Shown piece by piece: positions 2,530 to 33,400 of a stretch of DNA of 64,000 nucleotides (the first letter of the stretch is position 1; each line of letters starts with the position of its first letter). A program made the translations under genes and the position numbers. Source of the stretch: Microthyrium microscopicum (taxonomy: Eukaryota); assembly GCA_010405405.1 (NCBI GenBank), contig MU004231.1, positions 3,646,884 through 3,710,883 on the forward strand, read 5' to 3'. The notes beneath the pieces were generated by a model that saw nothing but the letters and a program-made list of their open reading frames with translations, had not been told where the DNA came from and made no database searches.

Positions 2530-2897
2530 TATAAAGAATACTATTTTATTATTAGAATAGGTAATAAAGAGAATAATATGCTTATTATAAAGAATAGAAG
2601 GTATAATAGATATTTTATAAGTATAAAGAATATTACTTTATTAGTAAAATAAGCAATAAGTAGCATAATACACTTTTTTTAGAAGGTAAGATATATAATA
2701 AATATTTTTATAATATAAAGAGTATTACTTTATTAGTAGGACGAGTAATAAAGAGTATAATATACTTATTTTAGAGGGCAGAATATCTAATAGATATTTT
2801 TATAACGTAAAGAGCATTATATTATTAGTAAAATAAGTAATAAAAAGCATAATACGCTTATTTTAAAGGGTAGGAGACGCCTTATAATTCTTCTTAA
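2530..2897. repeat. Four degenerate tandem copies of a 92-bp unit
   Basis: The unit start (T/C)(A/G)TAAAGA(A/G)...TTATT recurs at 2530, 2622, 2714 and 2806, an exact 92-bp period. Copies differ mostly by transitions. Confidence 0.8.
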
Positions 2898-8800: not shown

Positions 8801-11188
8801 GAAATTAGGGTAGTAAAAGATAGTAAGTTAAAAGAAAATAATATAATAATATATATAATAAAGAAGTTTATAATATAAGAAAAAACTTTACTAAAATATA
8901 GTACGCTAGCTAACTAAGGAAAAGAAAAAAAGGAAGGAAAAGAGCTCTAAGGCGTCTTAATAAAAAAAGTAATAAAGCTCTCTTAAGAGTAAAGAAAAGA
9001 AAGAGACTAAGAAAGTATAAATAAATTATAACTATTATTATTATTATAATTATTATTATAGACTAGCGTATTATCTCTATCCCTATTCTATATATATAAA
9101 TCCTCCTTTTCTATAGTAGAAGGAGCTTTTTTAAAGATAAGTAAATTTTCTTCTTATAAAGTAAGTAAATTACTATTAAAATTAGTAAATAACGCTAAAG
9201 ACTCTTACTTAAAAGAACGTAAGAAAGTAAGTAAAATAAAGTATCTACGCTTATTTAAGAGCTTAAGCTTAAATAATAATAGTTATTAAATTACGCCTAG
9301 AGGTATAACTATATAAGAAGACTATTATAATAGTAGTAGTAGTAGTAAAGAAAAAGAGAGAGGAGTAAGTAGATTTAAGAGTAGCAAGCCCTAGACTACT
9401 ACTTATTCTTCTTAATTATTATTACTATAATATTATTAATATTATTATTTATAATTTAAAAGTAAAGAAATATACTTATTAGTATTAGAAAGAATATCTA
9501 GAAGGTCTACGCGCTTATTATAGTACAAACGTATCTCTTATTAATAAACTATTCTAGATTCCTTAATAACTACTATATAGGCCTTTAAGCTATATATCTT
9601 TTTTTTATCCTTAAAATTATACTTAAATAAATTAGTATAAATATATAGTATATTATAGCGCACTAAATATACTAAAGGCTAGTAATATTAAGGTATCTTT
9701 AAAAGTCTAATAAAAAGCTAACATTTATAAAGGATATATAAAGCTAATATATATATTATTAAAGAACTTTAAAATATAAGGTAAAGAGAGGTTTTATTAT
9801 AATAATACTCTTATCTAACCTATACTCTTATAAAAACAAAGCCTAGTTAGTTTAGGCTATTATTTTCTATTAAAGCTATCTCTAAGAATAATATCTTATT
9901 ATTCTTTCCTAAAGTATAAAGTTCTAGTAAATTATATAAAGTTTTATAAAGATATTAGCTAATTATATACTAGAATATCTTTATAGAAGCCTATTTACTA
10001 TAAAAGCATTAATAATATAAAATAGTAGATATTATAAGGCTACCTAATTATAATAGCCTTATAATAGAATAAATCTCTTAAAGATATAGAAAGTCTATAA
10101 GTCTATTCTTTAAGTACTAGAAGCATTATAAAAATCTAGAGTACTTACTATTAATCTTAGAATTAAATATTATAGAATAAGATTAACTTACTAAAAGCTA
10201 TAATAATACTACTACTATAAGGTATAGAATAAATAGCTACTATATAATATACTTCTAAGCCTTAAAATAAAAGAAGTCTAACCTAATCTAATAATATATA
10301 ACATAAATTTTAAAAAATAGTCTCTACTATATAAATTAAAGTTATTCAAATTTAGTAACTAAAATCTTATATTATAAAACTAGGATTAAACCTATAAGAT
10401 TAGTAACTATATTATTACCTATCTATAAGCAAGTTAATAAGATTTATATAGTATTATCTATTAAATATTAACTACTTACTAGCTACTTATAAGCCTATAA
10501 AGATAAGCTATAATAGGCTTAGAATAGGTAGTATTTAAGATAATAGTCTACTTAAAGCTTATTAAATAAATATAAATTAACCTAAGGAACTCTCTTAATA
10601 TAAGGCTTAATAAATAAGTAAGGGATATTAAACTAAATATATATAAATAAGGACCTAATTTCCTAGGCTACTAAGCTACTAAGAAGTAATAAATATAATT
10701 TTAAATCTAGCGCTATAAACTTAAAAGTAATAACTAAAAATTTAATATTAATACTATAAAGATAATAATTAAGTCTAAAGAAGTATAAGAATTAGTCTAA
10801 GAGTTAAACTTAAAAATAAACCTAAATAGCCTTATATATATACTAACTAGAGGTTATTAAGTAAATAAAAGAACTTAAAACTACGTATAGAAAAATATAT
10901 AAGTAATATAGTATATAACATTAATATTAATATTAAACTTACTAAATATCTTTATAAAGCAAAGCTTTATAAAGCTTAAATATAGAGTAAAGGTATAATA
11001 AAGAGATATAAAGAATCTAAAGCAATAAATATAGTTAAATACCTATTAGGCTTTAGTCTTAACTAGTTTAAGTAGGTACTATAATAAGCTATATTTACTT
11101 CTTACCTTTTAGCTTACTAACTCCCTTTCTATAGGTACTAATATTAATAATATTACTATATAGTAGTTAGTTCCTCTTACGTACTATA

Positions 11189-11473
11189 NNNNNNNNNNNN
11201 NNNNNNNNNNNNNNNNNNNNNNNNNNNNNNNNNNNNNNNNNNNNNNNNNNNNNNNNNNNNNNNNNNNNNNNNNNNNNNNNNNNNNNNNNNNNNNNNNNNN
11301 NNNNNNNNNNNNNNNNNNNNNNNNNNNNNNNNNNNNNNNNNNNNNNNNNNNNNNNNNNNNNNNNNNNNNNNNNNNNNNNNNNNNNNNNNNNNNNNNNNNN
11401 NNNNNNNNNNNNNNNNNNNNNNNNNNNNNNNNNNNNNNNNNNNNNNNNNNNNNNNNNNNNNNNNNNNNNNNNN
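11189..11473. other. Assembly gap (285 N)
   Basis: Run of N. Confidence 1.
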
Positions 11474-14400
11474 ATCTTAAATAATCTTAGTTAATATTAA
11501 TTAATTAAAGAGTAGTATTTTATTAATATTAGATATAGAGTAGGTAGCCTACTAGAAGTATAGAACTCTATATATTAGTATTAAAAAATATACTAAGCTA
11601 AAGTAATAATTAGTTAGGAAAAGTAGTATTATACTTCCCTTTTTTTATAAAAATTAATAAATACCTAATATATATTTTCTAAATATAGCTTAACCTAATA
11701 GTTCTCTATTAAGCTCTTTTCTCTACTTATTTAATACTAATAATACTTAGTAACTAGATAGCTCTTTTATAACTAAGTAGTATACTTAAAGTATCTTTTA
11801 CTTATCTACTAGCTCTAGCTTAGATTAAGCTAATAAGTAACTCTATAAAAGTACTATAATATATAGTTCTATTAGTAAATAGAGATATAGAACTACTTAG
11901 CTTAGAATCCTTAAGAATTATAGTATTAACTATAGCTTATAATATATAATAATAAAAAGGCTTAGAAGCTAGAAAAGAGGCTAATAATCCTAGAGCTAAA
12001 CTAAATATTAGCATAGTACTAAATATACTTATTACCTAAAATAGTAAGCTACTTTAGTAATGCTATTTCTTATCTTATTTATATACTATAGCTTTAAAAT
12101 AAGCCTTAATATTAGTATAGTTAGCTTCTTACTACTATATAATAGTCTTATTAGTATCCTTAGCTAAGTTAATCTTAATTACTTATTAATTAGTAGATTA
12201 AGATATACTCTAGCTTCTTATTACCTCTTTTTATTTTCTATATTTCTATCTCTATTACTTAAGTTTAGTAAACCTTATAGGTATTAAAATAGCTAACGCC
12301 TTAAGCTTTTTAAGTAGGTCTATATTATAGTTATTATATTTATCTTAGTTATAAAGAAGAGTTACTTAATCTTTTAACTAATCCTATTCTATTAAGAATA
12401 GTAAATTACTAAGCTTAGTAGTATTAAAGAAGATATAGGCTAACTATTATTAAGTATAATAGCTTAGTACTATAAAAGATAATATACTATATTTAGATAT
12501 AGTAGAGAGTAGATATAATCTTTATATCTAGTTTTACACCTAAACTATAATCTCTTCTAAAGTAAACTAGCTATAATTATTAAGAGTTAGAAGTTTTAGT
12601 TAGGCTAATTTATTTTTATAAAAAGTAATCTTTAAAAGTAATAGGGCTAGGTTATATCTATTATAGTAAAGTAGTAAATCCTAAAGTAATAAAAATAGTA
12701 TCTAATCTTTACTAAGAAACTTCTAGATTATAATATAGATATAATTAATATTTACTAAATTATAGAACTTTTAGAAAGTTTTTACTTATTACTTAGTCTT
12801 AGGTTTAGAAAAGAACTCTATCTTCTTTAATTTTTTTTACTTCTCTATTATATTCTAGGTTAAAAGTCTAGCCTAAGACGAACTAGCTATAAGAGATTCT
12901 AGTTTAGTAGATTCTTATTCTATATTAGTAAGGCTATTTTTATTAATATCTAATATATTACCTAGTATCTATACTTATAATAAAGAATATAATAAAGCTT
13001 ACTAGGAAAGAGCTAGCTAAGACTAATATTATTATTATATAGTATAATATAATAAAAGTATATAATATATAGTAGTTTTCTATTAGCGCATTATAGCTAT
13101 ACTAGGCTTAGATATATCCTAAATAAGTTATTCTTTTATATATTTATTATATAAGTAATATAGAAGCTAAATTTTAACTATACTATAGTTACTTTTACTT
13201 TACGTACTATAACTAGTGTACTACTAAAGATTTAGTATATTATAACTAATTAGTATTTTCTAAATAATAATAAGCATAATATTAGAAATATAGTAGCTAA
13301 GCCTAAAATAAGTTATTACTACTATAATTTAAATCTTAGAGTTAAGTTTATAAAAAGTAGTATAGTAGTAATTTTAATTATACTTAAATAACTAAGATAT
13401 ATACTCTTTAATAATCTTATTAATATAAAATACTCTAGCTTTTAAATTATATAAGTACTTCTTAAAGTAATTATTAAAAAGATAAGAAGTAAGTATAACT
13501 AGTAAATAGTAAAAGTATATAAGTATAGTTTAAATACTAAAGATACTATTAATAAAAATAATTATCTTTAGTATCTTAGATAAACTACTAACTTTAATCT
13601 TATAGTTAGAGTATTTATATATATACTTATACTTAAGTTTAGGATATTAGCTAGAACTATTAATATTAATACTTTCTTTACCTAAAGGTTTACTATTAGT
13701 ATTATTCTTATTCTCTATAGAATAAAGATTAAATCTAGGACTTACTATATCTATACTAGCATTATACTTATTATTAAACTATACGTCTTAATATTAAACT
13801 TCTTCTTAGCTAGTAGTTACTTTATAGTAATTCTTATCTACTAAGATAATAGTTTTATATATCTACTAAAATATATACTATAGAATATTATAAAAATTAT
13901 TAAAAAAAGTAAGCTTACTTTTCTTAATAAAGCGTATAATAATAAAAAGATCTAGATAATTAATACTTATTCTTAATAGAGTAGTTTATTACTAATATTA
14001 ACCTAACTATTAAAAGCTACTAAGCTAAAAAACTATTTCCTATATTAGTTAACTTAAAGTACTAGTATATCTAAACTAAATAATATTCTATAGTAGTATT
14101 ACTTTAAGCTTACTAATTATAGTAAACTTTATTTAAAAGTTATACTACTAATAAACAAAATAATACTTATTAATAGCAATATACCTAATTCTTTACTAAA
14201 ACTCTACGTCCTTTAGAAGTTTTTAGAAGTCTAAAAATAATACTAGCTCTAGTAATAAGAGAATATAACTAAAGTCTCTTCTCCTTATCTTATAAATAAG
14301 ATATTAAATCTTCTCTTTAGAATCCTCTATTAGTAAATAAGGATTATATCTTACTATATTCTTAATATTATTATATTAGTCTTCTTTAAGTCTATTAAGA

Positions 14401-15779
14401 GGAATAATCTAAAGTATAATCTTACTAGTAAGAGTACTATAGGCGTATAGAATTAAGCTTTTACTAAACTTAGTTTTAGCTATTAAAAGTATATCCTTAT
14501 TACTATAGATTAATATATAAAGAGCTTAAATCTAAGCTTTTTTTAGCTTAATATCTAGATAGAATTATTTTAAAGTATTTCTTAATATACTAGACTATTT
14601 CTCTAAATAACTTTTGCTTTAAGTTAAGATATTAATTATCTTCTAAATAGTTTCTAGTTTTATTCTAAGTATCCTCCTAGTATATTTATCTAGTTCTTCT
14701 AGCTCTATCTCGTCTAAGTTATATAGTAATAGAGAATACTATATCTTTTAGTTATTAGGATAAATACTAAATTATCTCCTATTATTCCTTTATATAGCTA
14801 ATAGCTTCTTTTTAAAATCTAGAGGCGCCTTTTAAATTCTTAGTATCTTTTTAAATAGCATTATTAACTTAAGTAAAATAGTTTAGACCTAGGACATATA
14901 ATAAGCATAATAGTTTAGTAGTAAAGCATAAGTAGAGTAAAAAAACATTATTATAAATCTTCTAATATCTTCTAATATCTTTTAAGATTATCTAGATCTT
15001 ATAAGAAGTAGTAACTTTATAAGGCTTATTAAAGATTTTACTAATGTCTTATAAACCTTAATTAATATATAGCGCTAGAAGACTTTCTATATTTATTAAC
15101 TATAAGCCTTTAAAAGTCTATATATATATCCTATAATAAGGAATTAAAAGACTAGGTAGATAATAATATAGTAGCTAGTAGAATAAAAAGAGAGTATATA
15201 CTACTACTAATAATAATAACCTAAAAATAATATACTAAATTAAAATAGATATTAGTTTTAAATATATCTATATATATAAAATTATATATACTATAATAGT
15301 TATTTAGTAGTTACTAGTTAAAGATATACTTACTAAAATATAAATATATTAAATATTTTTAGATATATAGGAAAGATTAGTTTAATTTTATAGTTTCGTA
15401 TTAGTTCTAAATAAAAATAGATTTATTAAAAAGCTAGTTTCTAATTTTAGGTTTATATAGTCCTAATTTTAATCTATAGCGCTATAAAAGTAATAGTATT
15501 AAGTTATTTATAAAAATAGCAAAATTACAAAGTAAGTTACTATAAAATTTTCTTAGTTGTCCTTAGACATAACTACGTCGCAGCTAGCGAAGACTTGGCG
15601 CAATCTGATTAGCTAAGATAAACTCGGATAGGGATCTTGTGTCTAGCTCTAGCGTCAGAAGCTTGTCCTGTCCCAACTTCACCTCTTGTCCCCCGCCTAC
15701 AGCCCACCACCCACCACCCAATCTCTTCACAGCCTTTAAACCCAACGTCCCCTTTTTCCCTTTGATCCCAAGACGAGCC

Positions 15780-18440
<2,661 letters not shown>

Positions 18441-21164
18441 AAGTCTCGTCACCTAACGAATCCGGGTTTCCAGCCTGCCGCAAAGTCCCCCGAATCCCGA
18501 AATAGCCCACGGCGTTCTGCGATTCATGACCAGGACATTGAGACAATTTCAGAGCTACATACAGAACCTCCTCCTGGCTCTGCTTTGTGGCGGGTTCCTC
18601 CTCACCCTCTACTTTCTAGTCGTCTCCTGTCGTCCTTAAAACCCAGTCCTACCACGAATCGTCGTCATATTTCTACGACGTCCAAGTATGATTCTCCACA
18701 AAGATCAGCTCCTATACCTATCCCACAGCGACAGAAAGCTCCGTCTCATCCGTTGACGTCTCCTCGCGCTCGATCAAAGTTATCGACCTCTATTCAAGAG
18801 CGGATGTCGCCACCCTGGCAAGAATTAGAAGCTCGGGCAAAGGAACTACTCGGCTATCGTTCCAAACGAGATTCAAAATATGGCTCTCCCGATTATCATC
18901 CCCCGAGATGTAGCCCGGGGGGTCCAATTTCAAAAAAGGACTAGAGACTACTACAAAAGCATTCGGAGCCTTTCTCTAACACACGGAAGATGTTCAGTCT
19001 AGCTTTGGCCTGAAAAAATGTGGATAGAGCATGGTGTCGACATTTAGTGCGGTTGCACTGCTTCAACACAACTCTTCTCACTTTCAAAAATAGAAACTAT
19101 GGTATATTTAGATCAAAGAGGCTTCCGGACTTTGGCTCTCATTGCGTTAGAGGTCATGTTTCCCCCGAAAAGAAAGCTCGTTGCAGATGTTAACCTGGTT
19201 GGACATGTTCCTTCCTTGAAGATGGGTTGTTTGTATATAATGATCTATACTTGTATGGTGCTTTCGCACCTGGCAACGATACCCTTGAATCCATTATTGT
19301 ATTGTACTTTTCAGTAGCATTGTTTAGGATGAGCCTTGTCAAATGAATGCTTATTCGCATTAGTGGTGCTTCTACTCAGTTCTGGATTACGTTCTTGTCT
19401 TGCAGGAAGGCCACGTGTAGGATATCTTGGTTAGTGAATGGAAAAGACTTTAGGTACATGTACTGCTGAGACATTGAATACGTGTTTCGTCTTGTTCTTG
19501 ACTTCGACATCCATCTCATGAAGGGCTCTGCGAAATAACTCGTGTCGGGTGCTGTTCAGCGCCCGACACCAAAAAGTCAAGATTACAGATGATGAGCCGA
19601 AAACTGCCTCACATAATAGTTCATTATTTTCCTAAGTGCCGCAAAGATTTATACTTGTGGCAAATGGTGTTGCGGATCCACAAAGCTGCAGTGACTGACG
19701 AATGGTTCAACTTGCAAGCTAAGTGACATCTGAGCCTCCATCGAAAATGTATCTATTACCACGCTTCTACGTCAAATTACGGAACTTGACTTTTTGCTTT
19801 ATCTAAGAGAGACGACCTGACTGGAAAACTGGGAAGAGTTTAAAATCAAAATATGGGCTAGATTTTGAGGGAGGACAAGGCTGAAGCCTAATAACTGCCG
19901 GTCGTGGCGAATCAGATGACTTTTCATTGGTGGTGTATTTGGAACGCCAACAAAGCAGACCGCTAGATCAGCCAAAGAAACTCGGCAGGATAAGCCACTG
20001 ACTAGTCGAAGTTTCTGTGCGAGGCTCTTCGGTTTTTTTATTGTACGGCTGCTGCACGTTCAGTTGCACAGCAAGGACGGTCAAGACGGTGACCGGGTTC
20101 ATGGAATCTTCAATAGAGCTTCGAGAACATCAGACTTTAGAGTCGAATCAGAATCCGAAAGGCTTGACCTACTTCTATCAAACAGTCCGGTACCTTGGGT
20201 GTCTTCTCGAATGGTCATTTACTTGATGCCGGCCGTCTCAATGCTTGGCCACGACCAGATCAAAGATCAGGGACATGAATTTCTACGGTATGATTCGAAT
20301 CGGCTGCCTCGTACATTACGTTTGATGGTCTCACTTACGTCCCTATTCCAGGAACTGCATATTGAACCACCAAATCCTACCGACGTGGTAAGTCTTCGGG
20401 ACGGCGGGACCAAGCGAACCATAGTCCAGCCGCCCAGATCTATAGGTTCTGCATTTTGGATAGCACGGCGTCTGCCAAGTTGAACAGAGTTGGGGCTCAT
20501 AAACATTTAATTTTAGCCTTGAATGGCTCACCGATGTCGATCATACAGGTGATCTGGCGGACTGTTGCTGGAAGAAAAAGTTGGGCAAGTCGTATAGAAG
20601 AAAGCAAGATAATCACGGGAGTAGACGTGTGTTGGCAATGATGTGTGATATCAATTTCTGTAATCTGTAACTAAACCCAAAAGCTCACCAATACCCGACT
20701 ATATGTAAGTGACCCAACATTCGCGGCTCATATTTCATGGCTTCATAGGTTCGCTTCAAGAAGTCTCGTTTGGTTTAGATTGGTCGATTATCAGACTGAG
20801 TGTAGCGGCCTGCCTCGACAATTACAATGATAATAGAATCACGGTGGCTCTCGTCGTTTCTGGCGTTGACGGCACTAGATCACTGCCCATGGTTTCGAAA
20901 ATTTGGTTCACGTCTTTATTCTGTTTGTTTTAGTATGGTCCTTTCTACCACTACCACAACCATGGATTACCTGAGTCTTGTGAGCCGTTCTTGAGTACCG
21001 ATCTTTCTCGCGACCATAAATATGAACCATCATTCCCACTCAATCTTTCCTTTCTTCTATTCTTCCAAAAATTCCCCGTCCATCGAACTTCGAACATAAT
21101 TACGAAGCTCGTCTGATCCATCCGATCTACCAACCTGTCTATTCTTGAGATAAAAATCTCCGAC

Positions 21165-23508
21165 ATGGATTCCAAGACCAAAACAGCCGATAAAACGGCT
21201 ACGGCTACGCTCAGAGCGACGGCCGATGTCAACCGTATCGAGGCTCCCGTCACGATTAAAGCATATTTCATGTGCGCATTTGCTGCATTCGGTGGCATTT
21301 TTTTTGGCTACGACTCTGGATATATCAACGGTGTCCTTGGTTTGTCTCCCTCAACAGGATGGCGAATGTGCTGTGCTCCCATCACCTCTGATGTCTCCCA
21401 TCAATCGCGCTCTAGTATCGAGTGTTTCGTCTGCCATCGAAGGCGATAAAAGTTTTGACTATTTATCGAATGAGATGGGAAATGAAGCATCTTCTATTTC
21501 GCGGCCGTTTGGTAGCCATGACTGTGATGGGAGTGTGCCATTATCTTACCATCATTTGTTCACGCCTTCCAAACGAAGATGACTGACATTTATTTTAGCC
21601 ATGAACTATGTTATTGCCCAATTTACTGGCCTACCCGAATCTGCGAAAGCCGATAAAGGCCTCTGGATGATTCCTGCGGGTAAGTTTTTATCTTTGAAGA
21701 ACATCCTAGTTTGACGCCATCGAGTGTTGTGGCTTCCATAGCACTTGATGGCCACCAAAGAGCATGATGGGATGTCGCGCTGAAAGACCATTTGGTTTTT
21801 TGAACGCTTTTAAGCTTGGGTAACACTCTTTCTTGAGCTTTTACTAACGACTTTCAGGTCAGCAGTCGCTTATTGTCTCCATCCTCTCTGCTGGAACCTT
21901 CATCGGAGCTCTCTTCGCTGGCGATTTGGCTGACCGTATGGGTCGAAAAATCACTATCATCTCTTCCTGTGGTCTCTTCCTAGCAGGTGTTGCTATGCAA
22001 ATCGCCGCAGAAAACTTCAAACTTCTCACTGCTGGACGTGCTATTGCTGGTCTAGGGTAAGTTCAAAGTTCTTGATGAAGTTGGAACCATATTTTCTGAC
22101 CAAGATCAGTGTCGGTGGCGTGTCTTGCACAATCATCCTCTACATGAGCGAAATCGCACCTCGCAAGATTCGAGGAGCCTTGGTTGCTTCCTACCAGTTT
22201 TGTATCACCCTCGGACTGCTCGCAGCTTCAGTTGCCTGCTACTTGACTCAGAACCGTAACGACTCGGGCTCTTATCGTATTCCAATCGGTCTCCAAGGCG
22301 TCTGGGCCATCATTCTAGCCGTTGGACTCATGTTCTTCCCCGAATCACCACGTTACCACGTCATGCATGGAAATATCGACAAGGCCAAACAGTGCCTTGC
22401 AAAGCTTCGCGGTCAAGAAGTCGATTCGCCATTCATTCAAGAAGAGCTCGCTGAAATCGTCGCAAACCACGAGCACGAGACTAATCTGATGCCTTCAACA
22501 ACCTACCTCTCGAGCTGGGCAAACTGCTTCAAAGGTGGCATCCGAAAGTCCAACAGCAATCTACGCCGCACCATTCTAGGAACCTCACTTCAAATGATGC
22601 AGCAATGGACTGGAGTCAACTTTGTGTTCTACTTTGGAACCACATTCTTCACCAACCTTGGCACCATTCAAGATCCATTCCTGATCAGCATGGTTACTAC
22701 CTTGGTCAACGTTTGCTCCACCCCAATTTCTTTCTGGACTGTTGAAAGATATGGTCGCCGAGCTCTGCTCATCTGGGGTGCCCTAGGAATGGTTGTCTGC
22801 CAATTCATCGTTGCCATCATTGGAACTGCCACTCAAGGAGGACCCGCTGAGACCAAGGTCATGATCGCTTTTATCTGCATCTACATCTTCTTCTTTGCCT
22901 CAACCTGGGGTCCAGGCGCTTGGGTCGTTATTGGCGAGATCTTCCCTATCTCAATTCGTTCTCGAGGTGTTGCTTTGTCCACAGCTTCCAACTGGCTATG
23001 GAACTGCGTAAGTTTTAACTCATCTCTAAGACCAATCTCTAACTAACAAATAACAGATCATTGCGCTAATCACACCCTGCCTCGTGGGCAAAGATCGTGC
23101 CAATCTTGGTGCCAAAGTCTTCTGGATCTGGGGTTCCCTTTGCTTCGGCTGCTTCCTATACTCGTACTTCCTCGTCTTCGAGACCAAAGGTCTCTCCCTT
23201 GAACAGTAAGTCATACTGCTCCCCCCTTTTTATCGCATTGGATAGCATACATAGCAAGCGATCTTTTTTGCGTAGTATATGGTAGACATCGCAGGCGATG
23301 GGAATCATTCGCTAACTCAACCTTCTCTAGGGTCGATCAAATGATGGAAGAAACCAACCCACGCCACTCCAAGAACTGGAAGCCAACAACCACATTTGCT
23401 TCACAAATGGGGATGACTGGCGACAAGGCTAGCGATCCCACCACCGGCAACGGCGAAAATATGTCTGATGAGGATGCTTCGCGCAAGGCCTCGGGATCAC
23501 AGGTCTAG
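21165..23508 (+). CDS. MFS sugar porter, high-affinity hexose transporter type; exons 21165-21339, 21599-21679, 21858-22056, 22110-23007, 23057-23205, 23331-23508
   Basis: Sugar porter motifs GGIFFGYDSG, LADRMGRK, YMSEIAP, PESPR, QQWTGVNF, WGPGAWVVIGEIFP and ETKGLSLEQVD. Five GT-AG introns (259, 178, 53, 49, 125 nt) keep the frame. Confidence 0.93.
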
Positions 23509-25600: not shown

Positions 25601-26903
25601 TCAGCCTCCTGATGCTTCCCGGTAGAAGGAGATACTCTGGTTCTCGCCTGCCACGACGAACTGCTCTCCTCGTCCGAGTCGTGGTAGCCATTTTGCGCAC
25701 CAGACTGGTTTATCGGACTCGCCGTGTGTTGCTACGCAGACTCTTGTTTCCATGCCCCATATTTTTACTTTGCCGTCGTAGGAGCTGTGTGTGAATTTAG
25801 TACTCGGTATGTTGACTGAGGGCGAGAGCACGAACCTGCTTAGTAGCCATTCGCCTGTGGAGCTAAAGTCGAGACTCATAATCCATGAGTTGTGGCCGGT
25901 GAGATTGGCGACTTGTTCACCGCAGCTGACATCGTAAAGTGCGATGACCATGGAGTCACCAGCGGCCGCCAGGAGTGTGTTTTCGGGTGAGAATGCTACG
26001 GTCCGGACTGGCTTGATAAGACCTATAATGGTCAGTGTCTAAGTGGTACACAGGGAAAGGTTGACTTGCCTGGTAGTGAATGTAGCATCCTTCCTGACTC
26101 GTTGTTGAATAGGTATAAACCGCCGTTCTCATGCCCTGAAGCTGTGAATCTACCATCTCGACTCTATATCAAGTCAGCCAGCAGTCATCCCAATCGTGTA
26201 CATGATAAACTTACCACAGCGACACTCATCCCAAAGCTACCCTTCGTCTCATACTCCCGTATCTTTGTGTACACGCCCTCCTGCACCTTGCTCATATCCC
26301 ACATGCTTATACTCCCATCATACGCCGTCGCTGCAAGCAATTGGCCATTTTCGCTCAGTGAGACTGCCCATAATTCGCCAACTTTGCCTTTCCCCTCCGT
26401 CAGACTGCCCTTGGACTTCCAGGTCTGACTCTCGTCAAACACCCATACATTGACTTCGCCGCCAAAGCCAGCGCTCACAGCGACAGTACCATCTGCTGCT
26501 GCTGTGAGGTGGTGTGTGCCAAGTTTGTGTGCGCCCGTTAGTGTTTGTGTCAGCGCAAAGTCGCCAGTGCATTCGTGGATGGCGAGTGACGAGGCGCCGG
26601 AGCCCGAGAGTACAGATGTCTGCGTGGGCGCAAGGGCGAAGATGTCGGTGGGGTGCGCATTGTCGATTGTGTGGGTAGTAAGGTACTGCTTGGACTGGGA
26701 GAGAGTCAGCGGGCGCGCGAAATGAATCTGGTGGCAGTGGCGAGGGTATGGGTGGTTATGAGAATTATAGCGAAGGCGCGAGTCTTTTGACTGCGCAACG
26801 GAGAGGACGATCAAGTTGAAAGCTCGCCGCAAAACACATGCTGTATATAATATCGATGCTCTCTGTGAGGGTGGAAGAGGCAGTGGAATATAATACTAAC
26901 CAT
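25601..26903 (-). CDS. SKI8: WD40 protein of the Ski8/Rec14/WDR61 type; coding exons 26903-26901 (ATG only), 26694-26215, 26163-26070, 26022-25836, 25784-25601
   Basis: N-terminus MSKQYL..AH..DIF, plus AHKLG.HH, YETKGSFGMSV, SLPGLIKPVRTVAFSP, LTGHNSWIMSLDFS and SSYDGKVKIW, typical of fungal Ski8/Rec14. Introns are 206, 51, 47 (GC-AG) and 51 nt. Confidence 0.85.
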
Positions 26904-27591: not shown

Positions 27592-28241
27592 TCATGCCCT
27601 TATCTCATCTGTCTTGCGCCCGCCTTCAATCGATTCAGCGGCCTTGGTCTTGGATTCTGCCAACTCCTGCTGATTGTAAAGAGATGGCGCATCTTTCTCC
27701 ATGGGTATCTCAGTCTCTGATTTTCCAGCATCAAGTTGTCGGAGTTCTGCTTCGAGGGCCTCTATATCCTCGTGTTTATGTTGCTCCAAGTCTTTAGATT
27801 TTGAATATGTGATCGATTCGCCTCTAAGAACCTTGTTCCACGAGCTCTTCCAGTAGGTTCGAACGGCTGACATCTGTTAATGCTGAACTTTTGAGATCAA
27901 GTAAAAGGCATACCGTTAACGCAGTAAGGACACAAGTAAACTGCCCGCTTAGGTCTTCCACAGCTAGGACATTTCACAATAAACATGACGTCCTTGAGAG
28001 CTTTGCCAGCAAACTGCCTACTCCGCGACCGAGATTTCGAAGTCTTTTTCTTTGGTACTGCACGTAATATGCCATCCCATATATCTTGTAGTATGGAAGA
28101 AGGTCTAGGTAGTTGGCCGACTGGTATTGGGAGGGCAGACATGCCAAAGAGAGGTAGTGCTATCCGCCATGATGTAGGAAGTTTAGGGAGAAACGCAGGT
28201 ATGGCGAGGTTGAGTGAGGGTATTGCAGGCTGAAAAGCCAT
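27592..28241 (-). CDS. MRPL32: Mitochondrial ribosomal protein bL32m; exons 28241-27914, 27866-27592
   Basis: Presequence followed by IWDGILRAVPKKKTSKSR and the zinc motif KCPSCGRPKRAVYLCPYC. 47-nt intron GTATGC..CAG. Confidence 0.88.
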
Positions 28242-28684
28242 GGTGGAATGGCGGAGTCGAGCTCCTGGTTGAAGAACGAATGCGATTTGGCAGTGTACTG
28301 TTGATTTAAACGATGATAGCTGATGGTGGTGATGTACCGTACAGTAATTTGATGTATGGCCAAAAAAAATGCAGTAGCCAATGGGCTTGGAGAGAAGGCA
28401 CGGGTCATTGCGGCGATTGCCAAGACCAGCGCGTTGATTCCCAATTGGGTAGAGCGCGACGGGCACCCCTTTCCCTTGCAAGCCAACAAGCCAAAGCACT
28501 TGCCAAAGTCTACCGTCCCTGGATTCTTGCAGACAACCACTCTTCATCTTCATCCCCGACTCTCCGTCTCTTCTTCACCCTCAAACAATCCATCGTGCTA
28601 CTCTACCAAGTCGTCATATCAATTCCCCGACAACTTTCCTCTTGACGCAGCTCCGCGCATATTCCCGTCCACAAATTCTCCGCC

Positions 28685-29859
28685 ATGGCAATGGTATCTG
28701 ACCAACAGAATACTGTCTACCCAAAAAGTCACGTCGGCTTTGACAGCATCACTTCACAAATCGAGAAGAAGTTGCTGAAGCGCGGTTTCCAATTCAATGT
28801 CATCTGCGTCGGTTAGTCTTCCAATTCCGCCTCCATTGAATGTTCCAAGTCAATTAATTGTTGTACAGGTCAAACCGGTCTTGGAAAATCCACCCTCATC
28901 AACACCATTTTCGCATCCCACCTGATTGACAGCAAGGGTCGTCTTACCCCAACCGAACCCATTCGCAGCACCACCGAAATCCAAACCGTCTCTCATGTCA
29001 TCGAGGAGAACGGCGTGCGCCTGCGATTGAACATTGTTGACACCCCTGGCTATGGCGATCTTGTGAACAACGAGCGCTGCTGGGACCCAATCGTCAAATA
29101 CATCAAAGATCAGCACAGCGCTTATCTTCGCAAGGAATTGACTGCCCAGCGCGAACGCTATCTCCAGGATACGCGCATTCACTGCTGTCTATTCTTCATT
29201 CAACCTTCCGGTCACGGCTTGAAGCCAATCGATATTGTTGTGCTGAAGAAGTTGTCGGAATTTGTCAATGTTGTTCCCGTCATTGCCAAGAGTGATAGTT
29301 TGACTTTTGAGGAGCGGGCTGCCTTCAAGGAACGGATAAGAGAGGAATTTGCCTTCCACAACTTGCGTATGTACCCATATGACAACGAGGAGCACGACCA
29401 AGAAGAAATTGCCCTCAACGCTCAGATCAAGGTATGTTTCGTGTGCTACTTTGCTCCAGAGTAAGGCTAATGAGAGACAGAACATCATCCCTTTTGCTGT
29501 TGTTGGCTCAGAGAAGACCATCGTTGTCGCTGGAAAGCAAGTCCGTGGCCGTCAAAACCGATGGGGTGTCGTTAATGGTATGTACTCGAGCATGTCAAGT
29601 CAGGAGCATCACTAACCAAATCGCAGTCGAGGACGAGAACCACTGCGAGTTTATTTACCTCCGCAATTTCTTGACCCGCACCCACCTCCAAGACCTCATC
29701 GAGACCACTTCTCAAATCCACTATGAGAGCTTCCGCGCCAAGCAACTTCTCGCCCTCAAGGAGAGCAGTGCCGTCGGCCACTCCAGCCGACCCATTAGCC
29801 CTTCTGCTGATCGAGAACTTAGCCGGAACTCCCAGCGCATGACTATGAACGGATACTAA
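28685..29859 (+). CDS. CDC10: Septin of the Cdc10/AspD class; exons 28685-28811, 28869-29431, 29481-29577, 29627-29859
   Basis: SHVGFDSITSQIEKKLLKRGFQFNV, GQTGLGKST, DTPGYGD, AKSD and the septin unique element RQNRWGVV. No C-terminal coiled coil, as expected for Cdc10. Introns 57, 49, 49 nt. Confidence 0.93.
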
Positions 29860-30283
29860 GGCAGCTGCTTTGGCCGAGGCTTTTGTTCACTATACAGACT
29901 TTTCTCTCCAGTACCCCTTTTTAATCATGGGCAAACTTAATGCCAGTTCATGCCTATGGTGTCCGTCGGCCACGGAAAAACAAGTACCCCTGATATCGAT
30001 TGTGTTTAGTTGGTGTGTTGGTTTTGTGCAAGTTCTTGCTGCTAGCATCTCATCTGGCTGGGAGCAGGAGGGCGTTGCATGAGGAGTGGGTTCTAATAGC
30101 AAAACAGTCATCCTCAAAGCCTTTCTAGTGCAATTTCTTTGGTGGAGAGGGCGACTTAGCGACATCTATGTATCTAGCAGTGTTTCTTCTGCCAACTTTC
30201 TATAGTATGAAAAGCGTTGACTCCTTTATATCCGTTTGTAACCTTGATATCAGCAGTCAGTGTGACTGCAAACGCCCCAGAGC

Positions 30284-30435
30284 TATTGTGATGAAGAACA
30301 TGCCAAGGGATTAGATAATTGTGGGACCTAATTAGGGATGACATAATCCCCTAATTAGCGTGTCCTAAAAACTATATTAGGCCCTTAGACTCTTATAGTA
30401 ATTAACTACGCTTTATTTCTTATATTTTTATAATA
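30284..30435 (+). repeat. 5' LTR (152 bp)
   Basis: Aligns without gaps to 39688-39839 with 20 differences, all transitions. Contains the inverted repeat CTAATTAGGG..CCCTAATTAG. Confidence 0.93.
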
Positions 30436-33400
30436 TCTAGTAGTAATAATTTAATTTAATTAGGACTTCTAAATAATAAACCTTTTATAGAAATCTTTAG
30501 ATTTACCTTATTACTAATAATTACTTAGGATTAATATCTAGCAAAATATACTCTAAGAATATTATTCTCTAATTAGCTAGCCTTATTATAGCTTAATACC
30601 TAGTAACTATATATTAGAAAATAATTCTTAGAATATTATATATAATAATATTTCTTACTATAATATATTCTAAAAATATCTTAAATTATTATTAATTTAA
30701 ACTACTACTTTAAGAATTATTAAATATATTATAAGAATTATCTCTCTTATAATAATACTCTCTTTATCTTTACTAATCTTTATTATATTAATTATATAGT
30801 TATTAGACAAAATATAGGAACTTTTCCTTAGAAAATTCCTTAGAATAATATTATAAGAACTTTACTATATAGATTAAAGCTAATAAATAATAACGTAAAC
30901 TCTTAGCCTTAGGTTATCTTAAGAAATTAAATTAAGATTTTATTTATACTAAAGAAGTATAAAAATCTATCTTAGAATAATCTCTTAACTCTAGATTCTA
31001 TTTAATTAACTTTAGTATAAAAACTTTTAAACTTTAAGACTCTTTTCCTACTTTACTAAGATTATACTTTTTATTAAAATTATTACTCTTCTTTACTAAA
31101 ATAAATAACTAGTATAATAATATTATAACCTAAGCTATAGAATAAAATACCTAATAAGTATAATACTAAGCCTAAGTTACTAACTTAAGTTCTTAGAATA
31201 AGTAACTTACTTCTATATTACTAAATAACTTTCTTAGTATACTAAATCTTAATCTTAACCTTATAACTTAAGTTATTAACGTTTAGTAATTAGGGCTTTA
31301 AGTTTTAAACTATTCTACTAATATATATTAAGTTAATTCTTAAATTATTAACTATCCTTCTACTAAACTATAAATTCTCTTTTAGGCTTAGAATTATACT
31401 CTTAAGGAACCTAACTATATTCTCTAAGCCTATAATTAAACTTTTTAATATAATAATAATAAAAATTAATAGTCTATAAATAGGCTTATTTCTCTTTAAG
31501 AAGTATTATTTTACTTTACTACTAATAGATAAGTTAAATAAGATTATAGCTCTAAACTTATAAAAGACGTCTAATATACTTAGTAATAGAAAATAGTAAA
31601 TTATATTACTAAATTAACTTTTTGCCTTAATATAAGTAAGTTAACTTTATATACTTAAGATTACTAAGTAAATAAAATTAAGGCTTATATCTAGACTTAA
31701 GCTTTAATTTAGAAAACTTTATAAATAGGTATTACTTACCTAAACTTTATAAGAAAGCTAAGTAAAGAGTTAAATAAAACTATTAAATTACTTTTCTAAA
31801 TTTTTAGTCTTTAAAAACTTATTAAGATAATAAGAGATATTCTTTAAGAATAGAGATAATATTTAACTAAGTTTAAGATACTTCTTAATAGTTTATTCTT
31901 TAGGAAATTAAGTAAGTATAATACTTAGGCTAAGAGCCTTCTTTATACTTTTAAGACTAATAAAGATATTCTTTTATTAAATTTTACTTTATCTAAGTAG
32001 TAAAAAATTACTAAGATTAAAGAATATTTCTTTATTAAGTAACGTTTCCTATAAGCTAACTTAGCCTAGTAATAAGCTATAGAGAAGTTTAAGATACTTA
32101 AAAGTTTATTTTACTTCTTTACTTACTTTTAACTTATATTTAGTATTAAAAAAGATATACTTAAAGTTAATATTTAGTAAAATTATATATTATAAGTTTT
32201 ATTTACTAAGAAATTTATCTATTATCTTTATATTCTATAAACTTAAATAAATCCTATATCTACTAATTATAAAATAAGTATCTAAATCTAAAAAGGCCTT
32301 AAAGAATAGGTTACTCTTAAAGCTAAGTATAAGTATAGTATTATTCTTAACTCTATAGTTAATATTTTAGCCTTTAAATAAGAGATTATTAAATATAATA
32401 TAAACTTCTATAAGAATATATATAATACTTATAGTACTTATAAGCTAAAGTAACTTAATAAAATCTTTTCTAATTTTAAGAAAAATAAAGAGCTTATCCT
32501 AAATACTAGTTTTAAAGAATATTTTAAAAAAGTTAATAGTAATAGCTATATTAATAATAAGCTTAAGTTAGATAATAAAAATTTAAGGTAGCTTAATACT
32601 ATAAATAGCTATAGTTACTATTCTAAAAGATAATATAATACTTAATACTTTAGAAAATTTAACTTTAATAAAAAGTTATAGCTCTCTTATAAAAAGGACT
32701 CTAAAGATAAAAAAGCTTTTATAAATAACTTTAAACTTAAGTACTAAAATTATAGTAAACTTAGCTACTATACTATAGATTATAAAAAGCCTAACTAGTA
32801 ATAATAAAATTTAAAAAATTATTATTACTAGAAGATAAATAGAAATCTTCTAGCTTAGAATTAGAATACTTTACTTATTTATATAATAATTAATAAGCTT
32901 TTCTTAACTATATAAGTAAATATAGTAATACTTTTTTATATTTACTTATTTACTTATATTATAAAAATTATTCTATTAAGACTATAGCTTTCTTAGACTT
33001 AAAAGCTAATTTTATTTATATTAGTTAAAAGATTATTAAGAAACTTAAAGCTTTTATAATACTTATCTTAAAGAAAGAAGTTACTCTTATAAATAGCTAT
33101 ATAGTTATAATTTCTCTTAAGATTTATTTACTTTATTATATTAGGACCTTTTATAGCTACTTTAAGGCTTATATCCTAAATATTCTTAATCTTAATATTA
33201 TTTTTAGACTCTTATAGTTCTAGTTATATAATCTATAGATTAATTAAATAATAAGATAAATTAAGCTTATAAAGTAATACTTAGAAGGCTCTTATACTTA
33301 TAAGCTTACTATAGGACGCTAGGTAGAGCTTTTTTAAAATAAGAAAAGCTATTTAAAATAAATAAAGTAATTTATAACTAGCTTTCTTTATATAATCTTT

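What the first reader, a model, noticed from the sequence alone, without database searches (positions are those of the whole stretch)
18441..18944. SNF1 reading frame stays open for 167 codons past its TAG: candidate extended Snf1 isoform
Seen: after the normal C-terminus (...[12 protein letters not shown]) the same frame continues KSRHLTNPGFQPAAKSPESRNSPRRSAIHDQDIETISELHTEPPPGSAL and runs into the listed ORF 18585-18944. That is 167 sense codons; a naive (61/64)^167 gives about 3e-4. The peptide looks like a regulatory disordered tail with many SP sites and an SAPIPIP motif. Also seen: a branch point/acceptor (CTAAC at 18453, CAG ending 18473) just after the stop, in phase 0. An upstream phase-0 donor (e.g. 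GTATAT 18117, GTTCGC 18219, or GC-type GCGAGC 18390) would skip the stop in frame. Established: some filamentous ascomycetes convert UAG to UIG (Trp) by A-to-I mRNA editing in sexual tissue. Inference: alternative splicing, editing or readthrough gives a longer or C-terminally swapped AMPK alpha subunit. The TAG-A context is not a classic leaky stop.
Basis: partly seen in the sequence, partly recalled or inferred. Interest (0 to 1): 0.72.

Follow-up and report, generated by a model that had tools for sequence, protein, structure and literature searches.

The report
Coding-like open frame behind SNF1 stop
The energy-sensor kinase gene SNF1 of a leaf-litter fungus ends at its normal stop codon, but the next 167 codons stay open, sit on the same messenger RNA and partly look like protein-coding sequence, so a longer form of the kinase is possible but has not been shown.

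Summary
SNF1 (identical to the 852-aa Microthyrium microscopicum protein) ends at TAG 18438-18440, and the same frame is open for 167 more codons to TAG 18942-18944. Composition-aware chance is about 0.14-0.24%, not 0.03%.

New evidence:
- Spliced RNA contigs cover 15711-19318, so the open stretch lies on RNA continuous with SNF1, with both known introns removed.
- No junction appears near 18117-18473, and the contig reads A at 18439.
- The stretch has strong in-phase three-base periodicity (chi2 36.4; no shuffle reaches it), concentrated in 18561-18770 and absent from the rest of the 3'UTR.
- The tail has no homologue. 77 of 79 orthologues end at the same place, and distant orthologues show only short post-stop frames (median 14, maximum 115 codons).
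- The proposed splice donors are poor. The UAG has no known leaky context, does not lie in a hairpin loop, and the fungus is outside the lineages known for UAG editing.

Verdict: a coding-like tail that could only be made by bypassing the UAG (about 0.4). A non-functional 3'UTR oddity is nearly as likely (0.35). Earlier notes of this scan describe similar tails behind other stops, several of them TAG, in this genome; I did not test them.

The parts
15711..19318 (+). Extent of RNA contigs covering SNF1. These are contig ends, not proven transcript ends.
   Evidence: record 1 covers 15711-16141 and 16190-16636. Record 5 covers 16668-17016 and 17071-19318 with 0 other letters and 0 gaps. There is no cover at 15000-15602 or 19422-20024.
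15780..16141 (+). SNF1 exon 1 (ATG at 15780)
   Evidence: The spliced translation is 852 aa and matches P0004 at 100% identity over the stretches compared (both are 852 aa).
16142..16189 (+). Intron 1 (48 nt, GT..AG)
   Evidence: Joint 16141->16190 in an RNA contig
16190..17016 (+). SNF1 exon 2
17017..17070 (+). Intron 2 (54 nt, GTAAGT..TACTAAC..CAG)
   Evidence: Joint 17016->17071 in an RNA contig; sequence
17071..18440 (+). SNF1 exon 3 coding part, with the adenylate-sensor domain and the canonical C-terminus [24 protein letters not shown]
   Evidence: Pfam PF16579, E 4e-21. The C-terminal motif is shared with 77 of 79 orthologues.
18438..18440 (+). Canonical TAG stop, context GAA-TAG-AAG-TCT
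   Evidence: The RNA contig is identical here.
18441..18944 (+). In-frame open stretch of 167 codons plus a second TAG (18942-18944). It would encode a basic, S/P/R-rich, mostly disordered tail.
   Evidence: pI 10.5, GRAVY -1.15. AF2 mean pLDDT 56.7 with a single helix at residues 125-136.
18561..18770 (+). 70-codon core carrying most of the triplet periodicity (C-rich at codon positions 1 and 2, T-rich and C-poor at position 3)
   Evidence: Chi2 32.3, 0 of 5000 shuffles. Same phase in three successive 90-nt blocks.
18453..18473 (+). Present in the sequence, but no use is seen.
   Evidence: motifs; no joint
18945..19318 (+). Remaining 3'UTR covered by the RNA contig, with no periodicity
   Evidence: Chi2 2.8; cover to 19318

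Best explanation
The 504 bases behind the SNF1 stop belong to RNA continuous with SNF1, in what is annotated as an 878-nt 3'UTR. In the SNF1 frame they carry the statistical signature of a serine/proline/arginine-rich disordered coding segment.

The main product is the canonical 852-aa Snf1. The most likely use of the stretch is that a minority of ribosomes, or a condition-specific form of the mRNA, get past the UAG. That would give a roughly 1020-aa Snf1 with a 167-residue basic, SP-site-rich floppy tail, which could alter the stability, localisation or regulation of the kinase.

Shown: the open frame, its periodicity, RNA cover, the canonical position of the stop, and the absence of visible alternative splicing.

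Inferred: that the stop is ever bypassed, by which route (plain readthrough or UAG-to-UGG editing), and what the tail does.
For: - Open frame: 167 codons, composition-aware chance 1.4e-3 to 2.4e-3. The other five frames have 4-12 stops.
- Periodicity: chi2 36.4 over the ORF, as high as real SNF1 coding segments (31.3, 34.1), against 2.8 for the rest of the 3'UTR and 7.7 further downstream. 0 of 3000 shuffles and 0 of 181 open-conditioned shuffles reach it (highest 22.0).
- The phase is the same in every 90-nt block from 18441 to 18980.
- The position-specific composition does not lower the expected stop rate in frame 0, by my hand calculation from the tables. Periodicity and openness are therefore roughly independent.
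- GC-normal non-coding proxy windows never exceed 15.9 (151 windows). The core's 32.3 sits at the 99th percentile of coding-proxy windows.
- Downstream regions of SNF1 orthologues are aperiodic. 47 of 50 are below 25, and the 3 exceptions carry a convergent gene.
- A codon model trained on two S/P-rich coding segments of this window prefers frame 0: 0.065 against -0.194 and -0.016. It scores the rest of the 3'UTR at -0.07 to -0.11.
- There is no in-frame ATG before residue 121, so frame 0 can be entered only from SNF1.
- The intron-2-spliced RNA contig runs through the whole ORF to 19318.
- Precedent: stop-loss UAG editing adds disordered, destabilising tails to kinases such as FgDbf2 (PMC13123824, passages).
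- Lead only, untested: earlier notes of this scan report coding-like tails behind the stops of other genes of this genome.
Against: - The tail has no homologue. The one hit at E <= 1e-3 among 1.84 billion representatives is a repeat protein unrelated to Snf1. There were none among 72 candidates of similar length. In the 344-1098 aa range only the SNF1 part matched. The Atlas gave no usable hit.
- 77 of 79 orthologue proteins end at the same place.
- In 53 non-duplicate orthologue loci with a second stop, the post-stop frame is short (median 14, maximum 115 codons). None resembles the tail.
- Periodicity is significant only in the 70-codon core. The 97 flanking codons give chi2 11.5, reached by 359 of 5000 shuffles.
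- The general codon-composition score is 0.013, no better than the other two frames or non-coding proxies. However, 3 of 8 real ORFs score as low when left out of training.
- G at codon position 1 is 18%, at the low edge of coding windows (2 of 170 are as low).
- UAG-AAG-UCU is not a known leaky context.
- No significant downstream structure is predicted (z 0.24), and the A of UAG is paired rather than in a hairpin loop.
- The RNA contig shows no A-to-G change and no extra junction. Contigs can miss minor forms.
- The fungus is a Dothideomycete, outside the lineages with reported mRNA editing.
Confidence: 0.4

Rival explanations
1. Non-functional 3'UTR sequence. The stretch is never meaningfully translated. 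The frame is open by chance, helped by a pyrimidine-rich low-complexity core whose triplet pattern comes from slippage of CCT/TCT/CGT-like units.
For: - At p of about 0.002-0.005 per gene, a genome of roughly ten thousand genes should hold tens of such frames (plus my arithmetic).
- The periodic signal is confined to 210 nt rich in CCT (11 in the ORF), TCT (10) and CGT (6) codons, with local doublets such as CCTCCTCCT, CGTCGT and ACGACG.
- The flanks are not significantly periodic.
- No homologue was found.
- No bypass signal was found.
- The general codon score is at non-coding level.
- The tail is absent from all orthologues seen.
Against: - Tandem Repeats Finder finds no repeat even at score 30.
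- A decayed non-coding microsatellite should have lost its phase through indels, yet the phase is coherent over at least 270 nt.
- No non-coding proxy window in this window (151) reaches even half the signal, and no orthologue downstream region without a nearby gene (47) does.
- The signal stops near the end of the ORF.
- An 878-nt 3'UTR is long for a fungus (from general knowledge, not measured here).
Confidence: 0.35
2. Coding sequence of another origin. Either it is a young relic of an S/P-rich gene fragment that landed behind SNF1, or it is an independently translated downstream ORF (non-AUG start, or the 47-codon ORF from the ATG at 18801) on its own or an overlapping transcript.
For: - Periodicity can outlive coding function. 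RIP-degraded AT-rich blocks of this window keep chi2 of 28-44 with no open frame.
- An independent core of about 140 codons would be in frame with SNF1 and open back to the TAG by chance about 1 time in 10 (my arithmetic).
- Contigs cannot prove that SNF1 and the downstream RNA are one molecule.
Against: - No parent gene or homologue exists anywhere, including this fungus's own deposited proteome, which holds P0004.
- There is no in-frame ATG before residue 121.
- A relic should already carry stops.
- No gene-like minus-strand frame exists (12, 10 and 6 stops).
Confidence: 0.15
3. Alternative splicing from a donor inside SNF1 to an acceptor behind the stop (for example 18473) gives a C-terminally swapped Snf1.
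For: - CTAAC at 18453 and CAG ending at 18473 are present with phase 0.
- Two orthologue gene models (P0005, P0067) carry swapped tails that begin inside the last helix. These are automatic models.
Against: - RNA contigs at depth of about 944 show only the two known junctions and run straight through 18113-18473.
- The only fitting donor in exon 3 (18113) is in phase 2, incompatible with 18473.
- The implied introns (84-357 nt) are longer than this gene's real ones (48 and 54 nt).
- Donors at 18117 or 18219 would delete the conserved core of the C-terminal domain.
Confidence: 0.05

Closest known systems
Stop-loss A-to-I mRNA editing of UAG in Sordariomycetes (FgDBF2, FgMOB1, FgCDC14; 403 genes in Fusarium graminearum), PMC13123824, passages read
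   Same: A UAG stop on a conserved regulatory kinase is followed by an in-frame, disordered, non-conserved tail on the same mRNA. Such tails are reported as longer and more coil-rich than in control genes, and they act as destabilising elements.
   Different: Those tails are short (24, 11 and 27 aa in the named cases). The edited A lies in a hairpin loop. Editing is sexual-stage specific and is placed in Sordariomycetes, with an independent case in Pyronema (PMC11087585, passages). Here the tail is 167 aa, the A is paired in the predicted fold, no A-to-G is seen, and the fungus is a Dothideomycete.
Ribosomal readthrough at UGA-CU(A) giving peroxisomal isoforms in Ustilago maydis and other fungi (PMC4207609, passages read)
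   Same: A fungal gene makes a C-terminally extended second isoform by passing its stop codon.
   Different: That signal is UGA followed by CU, and replacing UGA with UAG reduced readthrough. The extensions are short and end in a PTS1. Here the context is UAG-AAG and the tail ends ...PISKKD, which is not PTS1-like.
Type I readthrough context UAG-CAR-YYA (tobamovirus) and the yeast CARNBA consensus. The motif letters are recalled; Skuzeski 1991 was seen only in the reference list of PMC4207609.
   Same: The leaky stop is UAG.
   Different: The six bases after the stop are AAGTCT, which does not fit either motif.
Canonical fungal Snf1/AMPK alpha subunit
   Same: Kinase domain, adenylate-sensor C-terminal domain, and the C-terminal SP(F/Y)P(F/Y)L(D/E)...LAE helix with the stop 19-24 residues after the motif.
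   Different: None in the annotated protein. The difference lies only in what follows the stop.

Membership tests
Snf1/AMPK catalytic alpha subunit | N-terminal Ser/Thr protein kinase domain | tested here: met
   P0004 (852 aa, like the spliced window gene; 100% identity over the stretches compared) carries precomputed PF00069 and PF07714. Kinase motifs are visible in the translation.
Snf1/AMPK catalytic alpha subunit | C-terminal adenylate-sensor / alpha-CTD domain | tested here: met
   PF16579, E 4e-21, 76 bits against a cut-off of 27.1
Snf1/AMPK catalytic alpha subunit | Protein ends shortly after the conserved SPFPFLD...LAE helix | tested here: met
   77 of 79 proteins end there, including this one. 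69 of 80 metagenome loci show the motif followed by a stop 19-22 residues from the start of the motif.
Sordariomycete-type stop-loss A-to-I editing | UAG stop (U at -1 of the edited A) | tested here: met
   GAA-TAG-AAG
Sordariomycete-type stop-loss A-to-I editing | Edited A lies in the loop of a local hairpin | tested here: not met
   In the 41-nt and 61-nt minimum-energy folds the A is base-paired. The folds are no more stable than shuffles (z 0.23 and 1.24).
Sordariomycete-type stop-loss A-to-I editing | A-to-G change at the stop in RNA | tested here: inconclusive
   The one RNA run reads A at 18439 with no other letter listed at 10% or more. It is held only as contigs, its growth stage is unknown, and minor forms can be missed.
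Sordariomycete-type stop-loss A-to-I editing | Organism belongs to a lineage with the mRNA-editing machinery | not testable with these tools
   The fungus is a Dothideomycete of order Microthyriales. The passages read place editing in Sordariomycetes and Pyronema, with none found in Leotiomycetes. No genome was held to inspect AME1 or TAD3.
Programmed stop-codon readthrough with a defined signal | Leaky context (UGA-CU(A), or UAG-CAR-YYA / CARNBA) | tested here: not met
   The context is UAG-AAG-UCU. Motif sources: PMC4207609 passages, and recall for CAR-YYA.
Programmed stop-codon readthrough with a defined signal | Stimulatory RNA structure just downstream of the stop | tested here: not met
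   For 18441-18560 the minimum free energy is -22.8 kcal/mol, z 0.24, and 117 of 200 shuffles fold at least as well.
Programmed stop-codon readthrough with a defined signal | In-frame extension kept open and conserved in relatives | tested here: inconclusive
   Absent in 53 of 53 distant orthologue loci (maximum 115 codons, no similarity). The best orthologue is only 47% identical over the C-terminal region, and no DNA from a close relative could be reached.
Alternative last exon of SNF1 | Junction reads joining SNF1 to the stretch | tested here: not met
   Only the joints 16141->16190 and 17016->17071 are seen. The data are contigs, so rare forms could be missed.
Alternative last exon of SNF1 | Consensus donor in a phase that fits an acceptor with a branch point | tested here: not met
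   The only GTRNGY donor in exon 3 is at 18113, phase 2. The only acceptor with a CTRAY branch is at 18473, phase 0.

The most novel reading that the evidence does not exclude
The Snf1/AMPK alpha subunit of a Dothideomycete is made in a second, roughly 1020-aa form by bypass of its UAG stop, adding a 167-residue basic, SP-site-rich disordered tail. If the other coding-like tails noted behind stops (several TAG) in this genome are also real, this fungus would have a genome-wide UAG stop-loss programme (editing or efficient UAG readthrough) outside the lineages where one is known.
Probability: 0.3. Interest if true: 0.7.

Novelty: new member of a known kind. Interest (0 to 1): 0.45.

Why it matters
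Snf1/AMPK is the central energy sensor of eukaryotic cells, and its extreme C-terminus sits in the core of the heterotrimer. A second isoform with a long phosphorylatable tail would be a new layer of control over carbon-source signalling. It would also be a very long example of a stop-bypass extension on a kinase.

If the route were UAG editing, it would extend fungal mRNA editing to the Dothideomycetes. If the stretch is not translated, the case is still a useful warning. A long open, period-3 frame on the right mRNA can exist with no homologue and no bypass signal, so frame statistics alone cannot call a readthrough isoform.

Tried and rejected
- Whole genome: none is held. I could not run a genome-wide comparison of post-stop frames by stop type, and could not look for AME1 or TAD3.
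- Sequencing runs: no RNA holder is listed on record. The single run X1 proved to be RNA-derived, because both introns are removed and the flanks are uncovered. It is held only as contigs, so transcript ends, strand, expression level and rare forms cannot be read.
- Homology of the tail:
  - Pfam gave nothing.
  - phmmer against 1.84 billion representatives gave one spurious hit to a repeat protein.
  - The word-index searches found nothing for the tail.
  - The protein Atlas gave no usable hit.
  - The scan's own index returned nothing by sequence or by relatives.
- A tblastn hit of the tail to window 55937-56137 (E 0.001) crosses a stop and is spurious.
- The swapped tails of P0005 and P0067 show no similarity to this tail.
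- Decayed microsatellite: Tandem Repeats Finder found nothing at score 30 or above.
- Minus-strand gene: rejected, with 12, 10 and 6 stops.
- Convergent gene as in L037, L003 and L001: not present here.
- Codon-composition and synonymous-usage scores have too little power in this genome to decide. 3 of 8 real ORFs score like non-coding sequence when left out of training.
- AF2 on the single sequence gives a low-confidence coil with one helix. This fits disorder but says nothing about translation.
- Small ORFs in other frames are too short to explain the signal: 18526-18639 (37 aa, hydrophobic) and a 22-aa ORF from the ATG at 18688 (read by eye).
Full report
**What is there.**

The window carries a three-exon SNF1 gene on the + strand. 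The ATG is at 15780, the introns are 16142-16189 and 17017-17070, and the stop is TAG at 18438-18440. The spliced product is 852 aa. It matches at 100% identity, over the stretches compared, the protein that NCBI names 'Pkinase-domain-containing protein [Microthyrium microscopicum]', which is also 852 aa (P0004). That fungus is a Dothideomycete of the order Microthyriales.

The CTAAC at 18453 and the CAG ending at 18473 are also there.

**Is the open frame more than chance?**

- With the local base composition the probability is 1.4e-3. 47 of 20000 dinucleotide-preserving shuffles are open.
- The five other frames of the stretch hold 4, 6, 12, 10 and 6 stops.
- Only 16 of 9808 stop-to-stop frames in the 64-kb window reach this length.
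- None of the other long ORFs of the window is followed by anything comparable. The two larger entries are SNF1 exon 3 itself and the antisense of the septin gene.

At roughly 0.2-0.5% per gene, a fungal genome should still hold tens of such frames by chance. Openness alone therefore proves nothing.

**The stop is the real, ancestral end of Snf1.**

I retrieved 79 Snf1 proteins with the C-terminal third of the protein. Of these, 77 end a few residues after the conserved SP(F/Y)P(F/Y)L(D/E)...LAE helix, at the same point as this gene. The two exceptions are P0005 (Cladophialophora chaetospira) and P0067 (Saxophila tyrrhenica). Both are gene models whose tails branch off inside that helix, and neither tail resembles this one.

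In 80 metagenome loci encoding Snf1 relatives, 69 show the motif followed by a stop.
- Among 56 non-duplicate loci the stops are TGA 30, TAG 14 and TAA 12.
- In the 53 with a second stop inside the locus, the post-stop in-frame run has median 14 and maximum 115 codons.
- Neither tblastn with the tail nor blastn with the 3'UTR finds anything in them.

All of these relatives are distant. The best reaches only 47% identity over the C-terminal region, so they cannot test codon-level conservation of a fast-evolving tail.

**RNA.**

One public run holds the stretch. Its contigs lack both introns (joints 16141->16190 and 17016->17071, both GT..AG). They leave the flanks 15000-15602 and 19422-20024 uncovered, so the material is RNA-derived.

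One contig of 2598 nt runs from exon 2 across the intron-2 junction, through the TAG and the whole open stretch, to 19318. It shows no other letter and no gap. As annotated, the 3'UTR is 878 nt.

No joint is seen near 18113-18473, and the contig reads A at 18439.

Caveats:
- Contigs cannot show ends, strand or level.
- They can drop rare forms. A 3.5% variant at 16607-16666 was nevertheless kept as its own contig.
- A contig across two features does not prove a single molecule.

**An unexpected coding-like signal.**

The stretch is strongly triplet-periodic.
- C makes up 38%, 40% and 17% of codon positions 1, 2 and 3. T makes up 22%, 14% and 36%. This gives chi2 36.4 on 6 df.
- That matches real SNF1 coding segments (31.3 and 34.1). 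The rest of the 3'UTR gives 2.8 and the next 500 nt give 7.7.
- No shuffle reaches the value (0 of 3000). Nor does any of 181 shuffles that happened to be open in frame 0, whose highest value was 22.0. Selecting for openness therefore does not create the signal.
- From the same tables I calculate that the periodic composition leaves the expected stop rate in frame 0 nearly unchanged (0.038 per codon).
- The phase is constant in every 90-nt block from 18441 to 18980 and fades after the second TAG.
- In GC-normal non-coding proxy windows of this window the maximum is 15.9 (151 windows of 210 nt). The 99th percentile of coding-proxy windows is 32.7.
- Downstream of SNF1 in 50 non-duplicate orthologue loci the median is 6.05. 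The three values of 25 or more belong to one group of relatives, which carry a convergent gene directly downstream.
- High periodicity without an open frame does occur here, but only in AT-rich (16-26% GC) blocks that look like RIP-degraded dead coding sequence. This confirms that the signal marks present or past coding.

**Limits of that signal.**

- It is concentrated in a 70-codon core, 18561-18770 (chi2 32.3, 0 of 5000 shuffles). The 97 flanking codons show only a trend: chi2 11.5, reached by 359 of 5000 shuffles.
- The core is rich in CCT, TCT and CGT codons with small local doublets, so slippage of triplet units is conceivable. Against that, Tandem Repeats Finder finds nothing at score 30 or above, and a decayed non-coding repeat should have lost its phase through indels.
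- The general codon-composition score of frame 0 (0.013 bits per codon) is no better than the other two frames or non-coding proxies.
- G at codon position 1 is only 18%. Just 2 of 170 coding windows are as low.
- Both low windows lie in a 402-codon S/T/P-rich ORF at 45598-46803 (minus strand). That ORF shows the same traits, and it too scores like non-coding sequence when left out of training (0.022), as do two other real ORFs.
- A model trained only on that ORF and on the disordered region of Snf1 prefers frame 0 of the tail (0.065 against -0.194 and -0.016). It rejects the rest of the 3'UTR.

On balance the stretch looks more like an S/P/R-rich disordered coding segment than like ordinary UTR, but not decisively.

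**What the tail would be.**

It is 167 residues long with S 27, P 26, R 17 and only one V. The pI is 10.5 and GRAVY is -1.15. It has 8 SP sites, a count reached by 307 of 10000 shuffles.

AlphaFold2 without an alignment gives mean pLDDT 56.7 and one helix, at residues 125-136 (PWQELEARAKEL).

It has no Pfam family and no homologue.
- Among 1.84 billion representatives, the single hit at E 2e-9 is a 920-aa protein built of tandem repeats that matched in seven stretches. It has nothing to do with Snf1.
- Nothing was found among proteins of 91-293 aa.
- In the 344-1098 aa range only the SNF1 part matched.
- The protein Atlas gave no usable hit.

There is no in-frame ATG before residue 121, so frame 0 can be entered only from SNF1 or by non-AUG initiation.

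**Routes past the stop.**

Splicing:
- The only donor in exon 3 that does (GTGGGT, 18113) is in phase 2. The only acceptor with a CTRAY branch (18473) is in phase 0.
- The real introns of this gene are 48 and 54 nt, and the RNA shows no such joint.

Editing:
- Stop-loss UAG-to-UGG editing is well documented. F. graminearum has 403 such genes, including the kinase gene DBF2, where the tail acts as a destabilising element (PMC13123824, abstract and passages).
- The passages I read place it in Sordariomycetes, with the edited A in a hairpin loop.
- Here the A is paired in the predicted folds, which are no better than shuffles. No A-to-G is seen, and the fungus is a Dothideomycete.

Readthrough:
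- The fungal UGA-CU(A) signal (PMC4207609, passages) does not fit UAG-AAG-UCU.
- The UAG-CAR-YYA type (motif recalled) does not fit either.
- No downstream structure stands out (z 0.24).

None of the known routes is therefore supported by a signal. Plain low-level readthrough, or an unknown route, remains possible.

**Weighing.**

Two roughly independent anomalies coincide: an open frame (p about 0.002-0.005) and a period-3 signal not seen in any non-coding control. They lie in the SNF1 frame, begin at its stop, end at the next stop, and sit on RNA continuous with SNF1. That favours sequence that is, or recently was, read as protein from SNF1.

Against this stand several points: the tail has no homologue; no relative is close enough to test conservation; no bypass signal was found; the periodicity is confined to a 70-codon core; and tens of chance open frames are expected per genome.

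My estimates:

| Reading | Probability |
|---|---|
| Real extended isoform by UAG bypass | about 0.40 |
| Non-functional UTR oddity | about 0.35 |
| Relic or independent ORF | about 0.15 |
| Alternative splicing | about 0.05 |

**Earlier notes of this scan.**

For the same genome, earlier notes report in-frame coding-like tails behind the stops of other genes:
- RPC5: TAG, 202 codons.
- HIR1: two TAGs, 141 codons.
- CWC21: TAG, 65 codons.
- SIT4: 82 codons.
- RSC7: UAG, judged an orphan ORF.
- PDK: a conserved readthrough.

I could not test any of these. With about 157 windows read, a handful of long open tails is what chance predicts, so I treat them only as a lead for the genome-wide test in the next steps.

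**Novelty and interest.**

If real, this is a new member of a known kind (stop-bypass C-terminal extension). It would be notable for the protein (the AMPK/Snf1 catalytic subunit), for the length of the tail, and for the lineage. As it stands it is an unproven but testable candidate, at interest 0.45.

Noticed in passing
window 1-15500, about 30000-39000, about 50000-52000: AT-rich blocks (16-28% GC) interrupt GC-normal gene-bearing DNA. Several 500-nt windows inside them (8401-9201, 11701-12301, 13101-14001, 32101-32901, 34001-34601, 51301-51901) keep strong triplet periodicity (chi2 25-44) with no frame longer than about 100 codons (39-57 in most). They look like RIP-degraded dead coding sequence.
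   Followed up: partly
window 16607-16666: The RNA run holds a minor 60-nt contig with one other letter (depth 26.9 against 736.7 for the main form) inside SNF1 exon 2, near 16636-16637. It could be an error, an allele or an edit.
   Followed up: no
P0005 and P0067 (orthologue proteins): Two Snf1 gene models from other fungi (Cladophialophora chaetospira, Saxophila tyrrhenica) replace the last residues of the conserved C-terminal helix with unrelated tails of about 25 and 129 aa. This may be an annotation artefact or a real alternative last exon.
   Followed up: partly
L037 4720-5241, L003 1646-2131, L001 1761-2243 (minus strand): In one group of Snf1 relatives, a conserved convergent ORF of 161-174 codons lies about 190-200 nt behind the SNF1 stop. 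No counterpart lies behind SNF1 in this window.
   Followed up: no
window 45598-46803 (minus strand): A 402-codon ORF with 24% serine (S/T/P-rich), no Pfam domain and the strongest periodicity in the window (chi2 up to 54). It is probably a disordered protein and served as a comparator for the tail.
   Followed up: partly
window 18526-18639 (+ strand, frame +1): A small ATG-started ORF of 37 codons inside the stretch encodes a hydrophobic, membrane-span-like peptide (...NLLLALLCGGFLLTLYFLVV...). It is probably chance.
   Followed up: no
window 15711: The RNA contig begins at 15711 with a 21-letter adapter-like loose end, 69 nt before the SNF1 ATG. This is a possible hint of the transcript start.
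   Followed up: no
window 21934-23043, 28817-29461, 44294-45445 (-), 58510-59490 (-), 26188-26895 (-), 27900-28574 (-): The neighbouring ORFs are ordinary fungal genes: sugar transporter, septin, DEP/RGS protein, Alg9-like mannosyltransferase, WD40 protein and a ribosomal L32p-family protein.
   Followed up: partly
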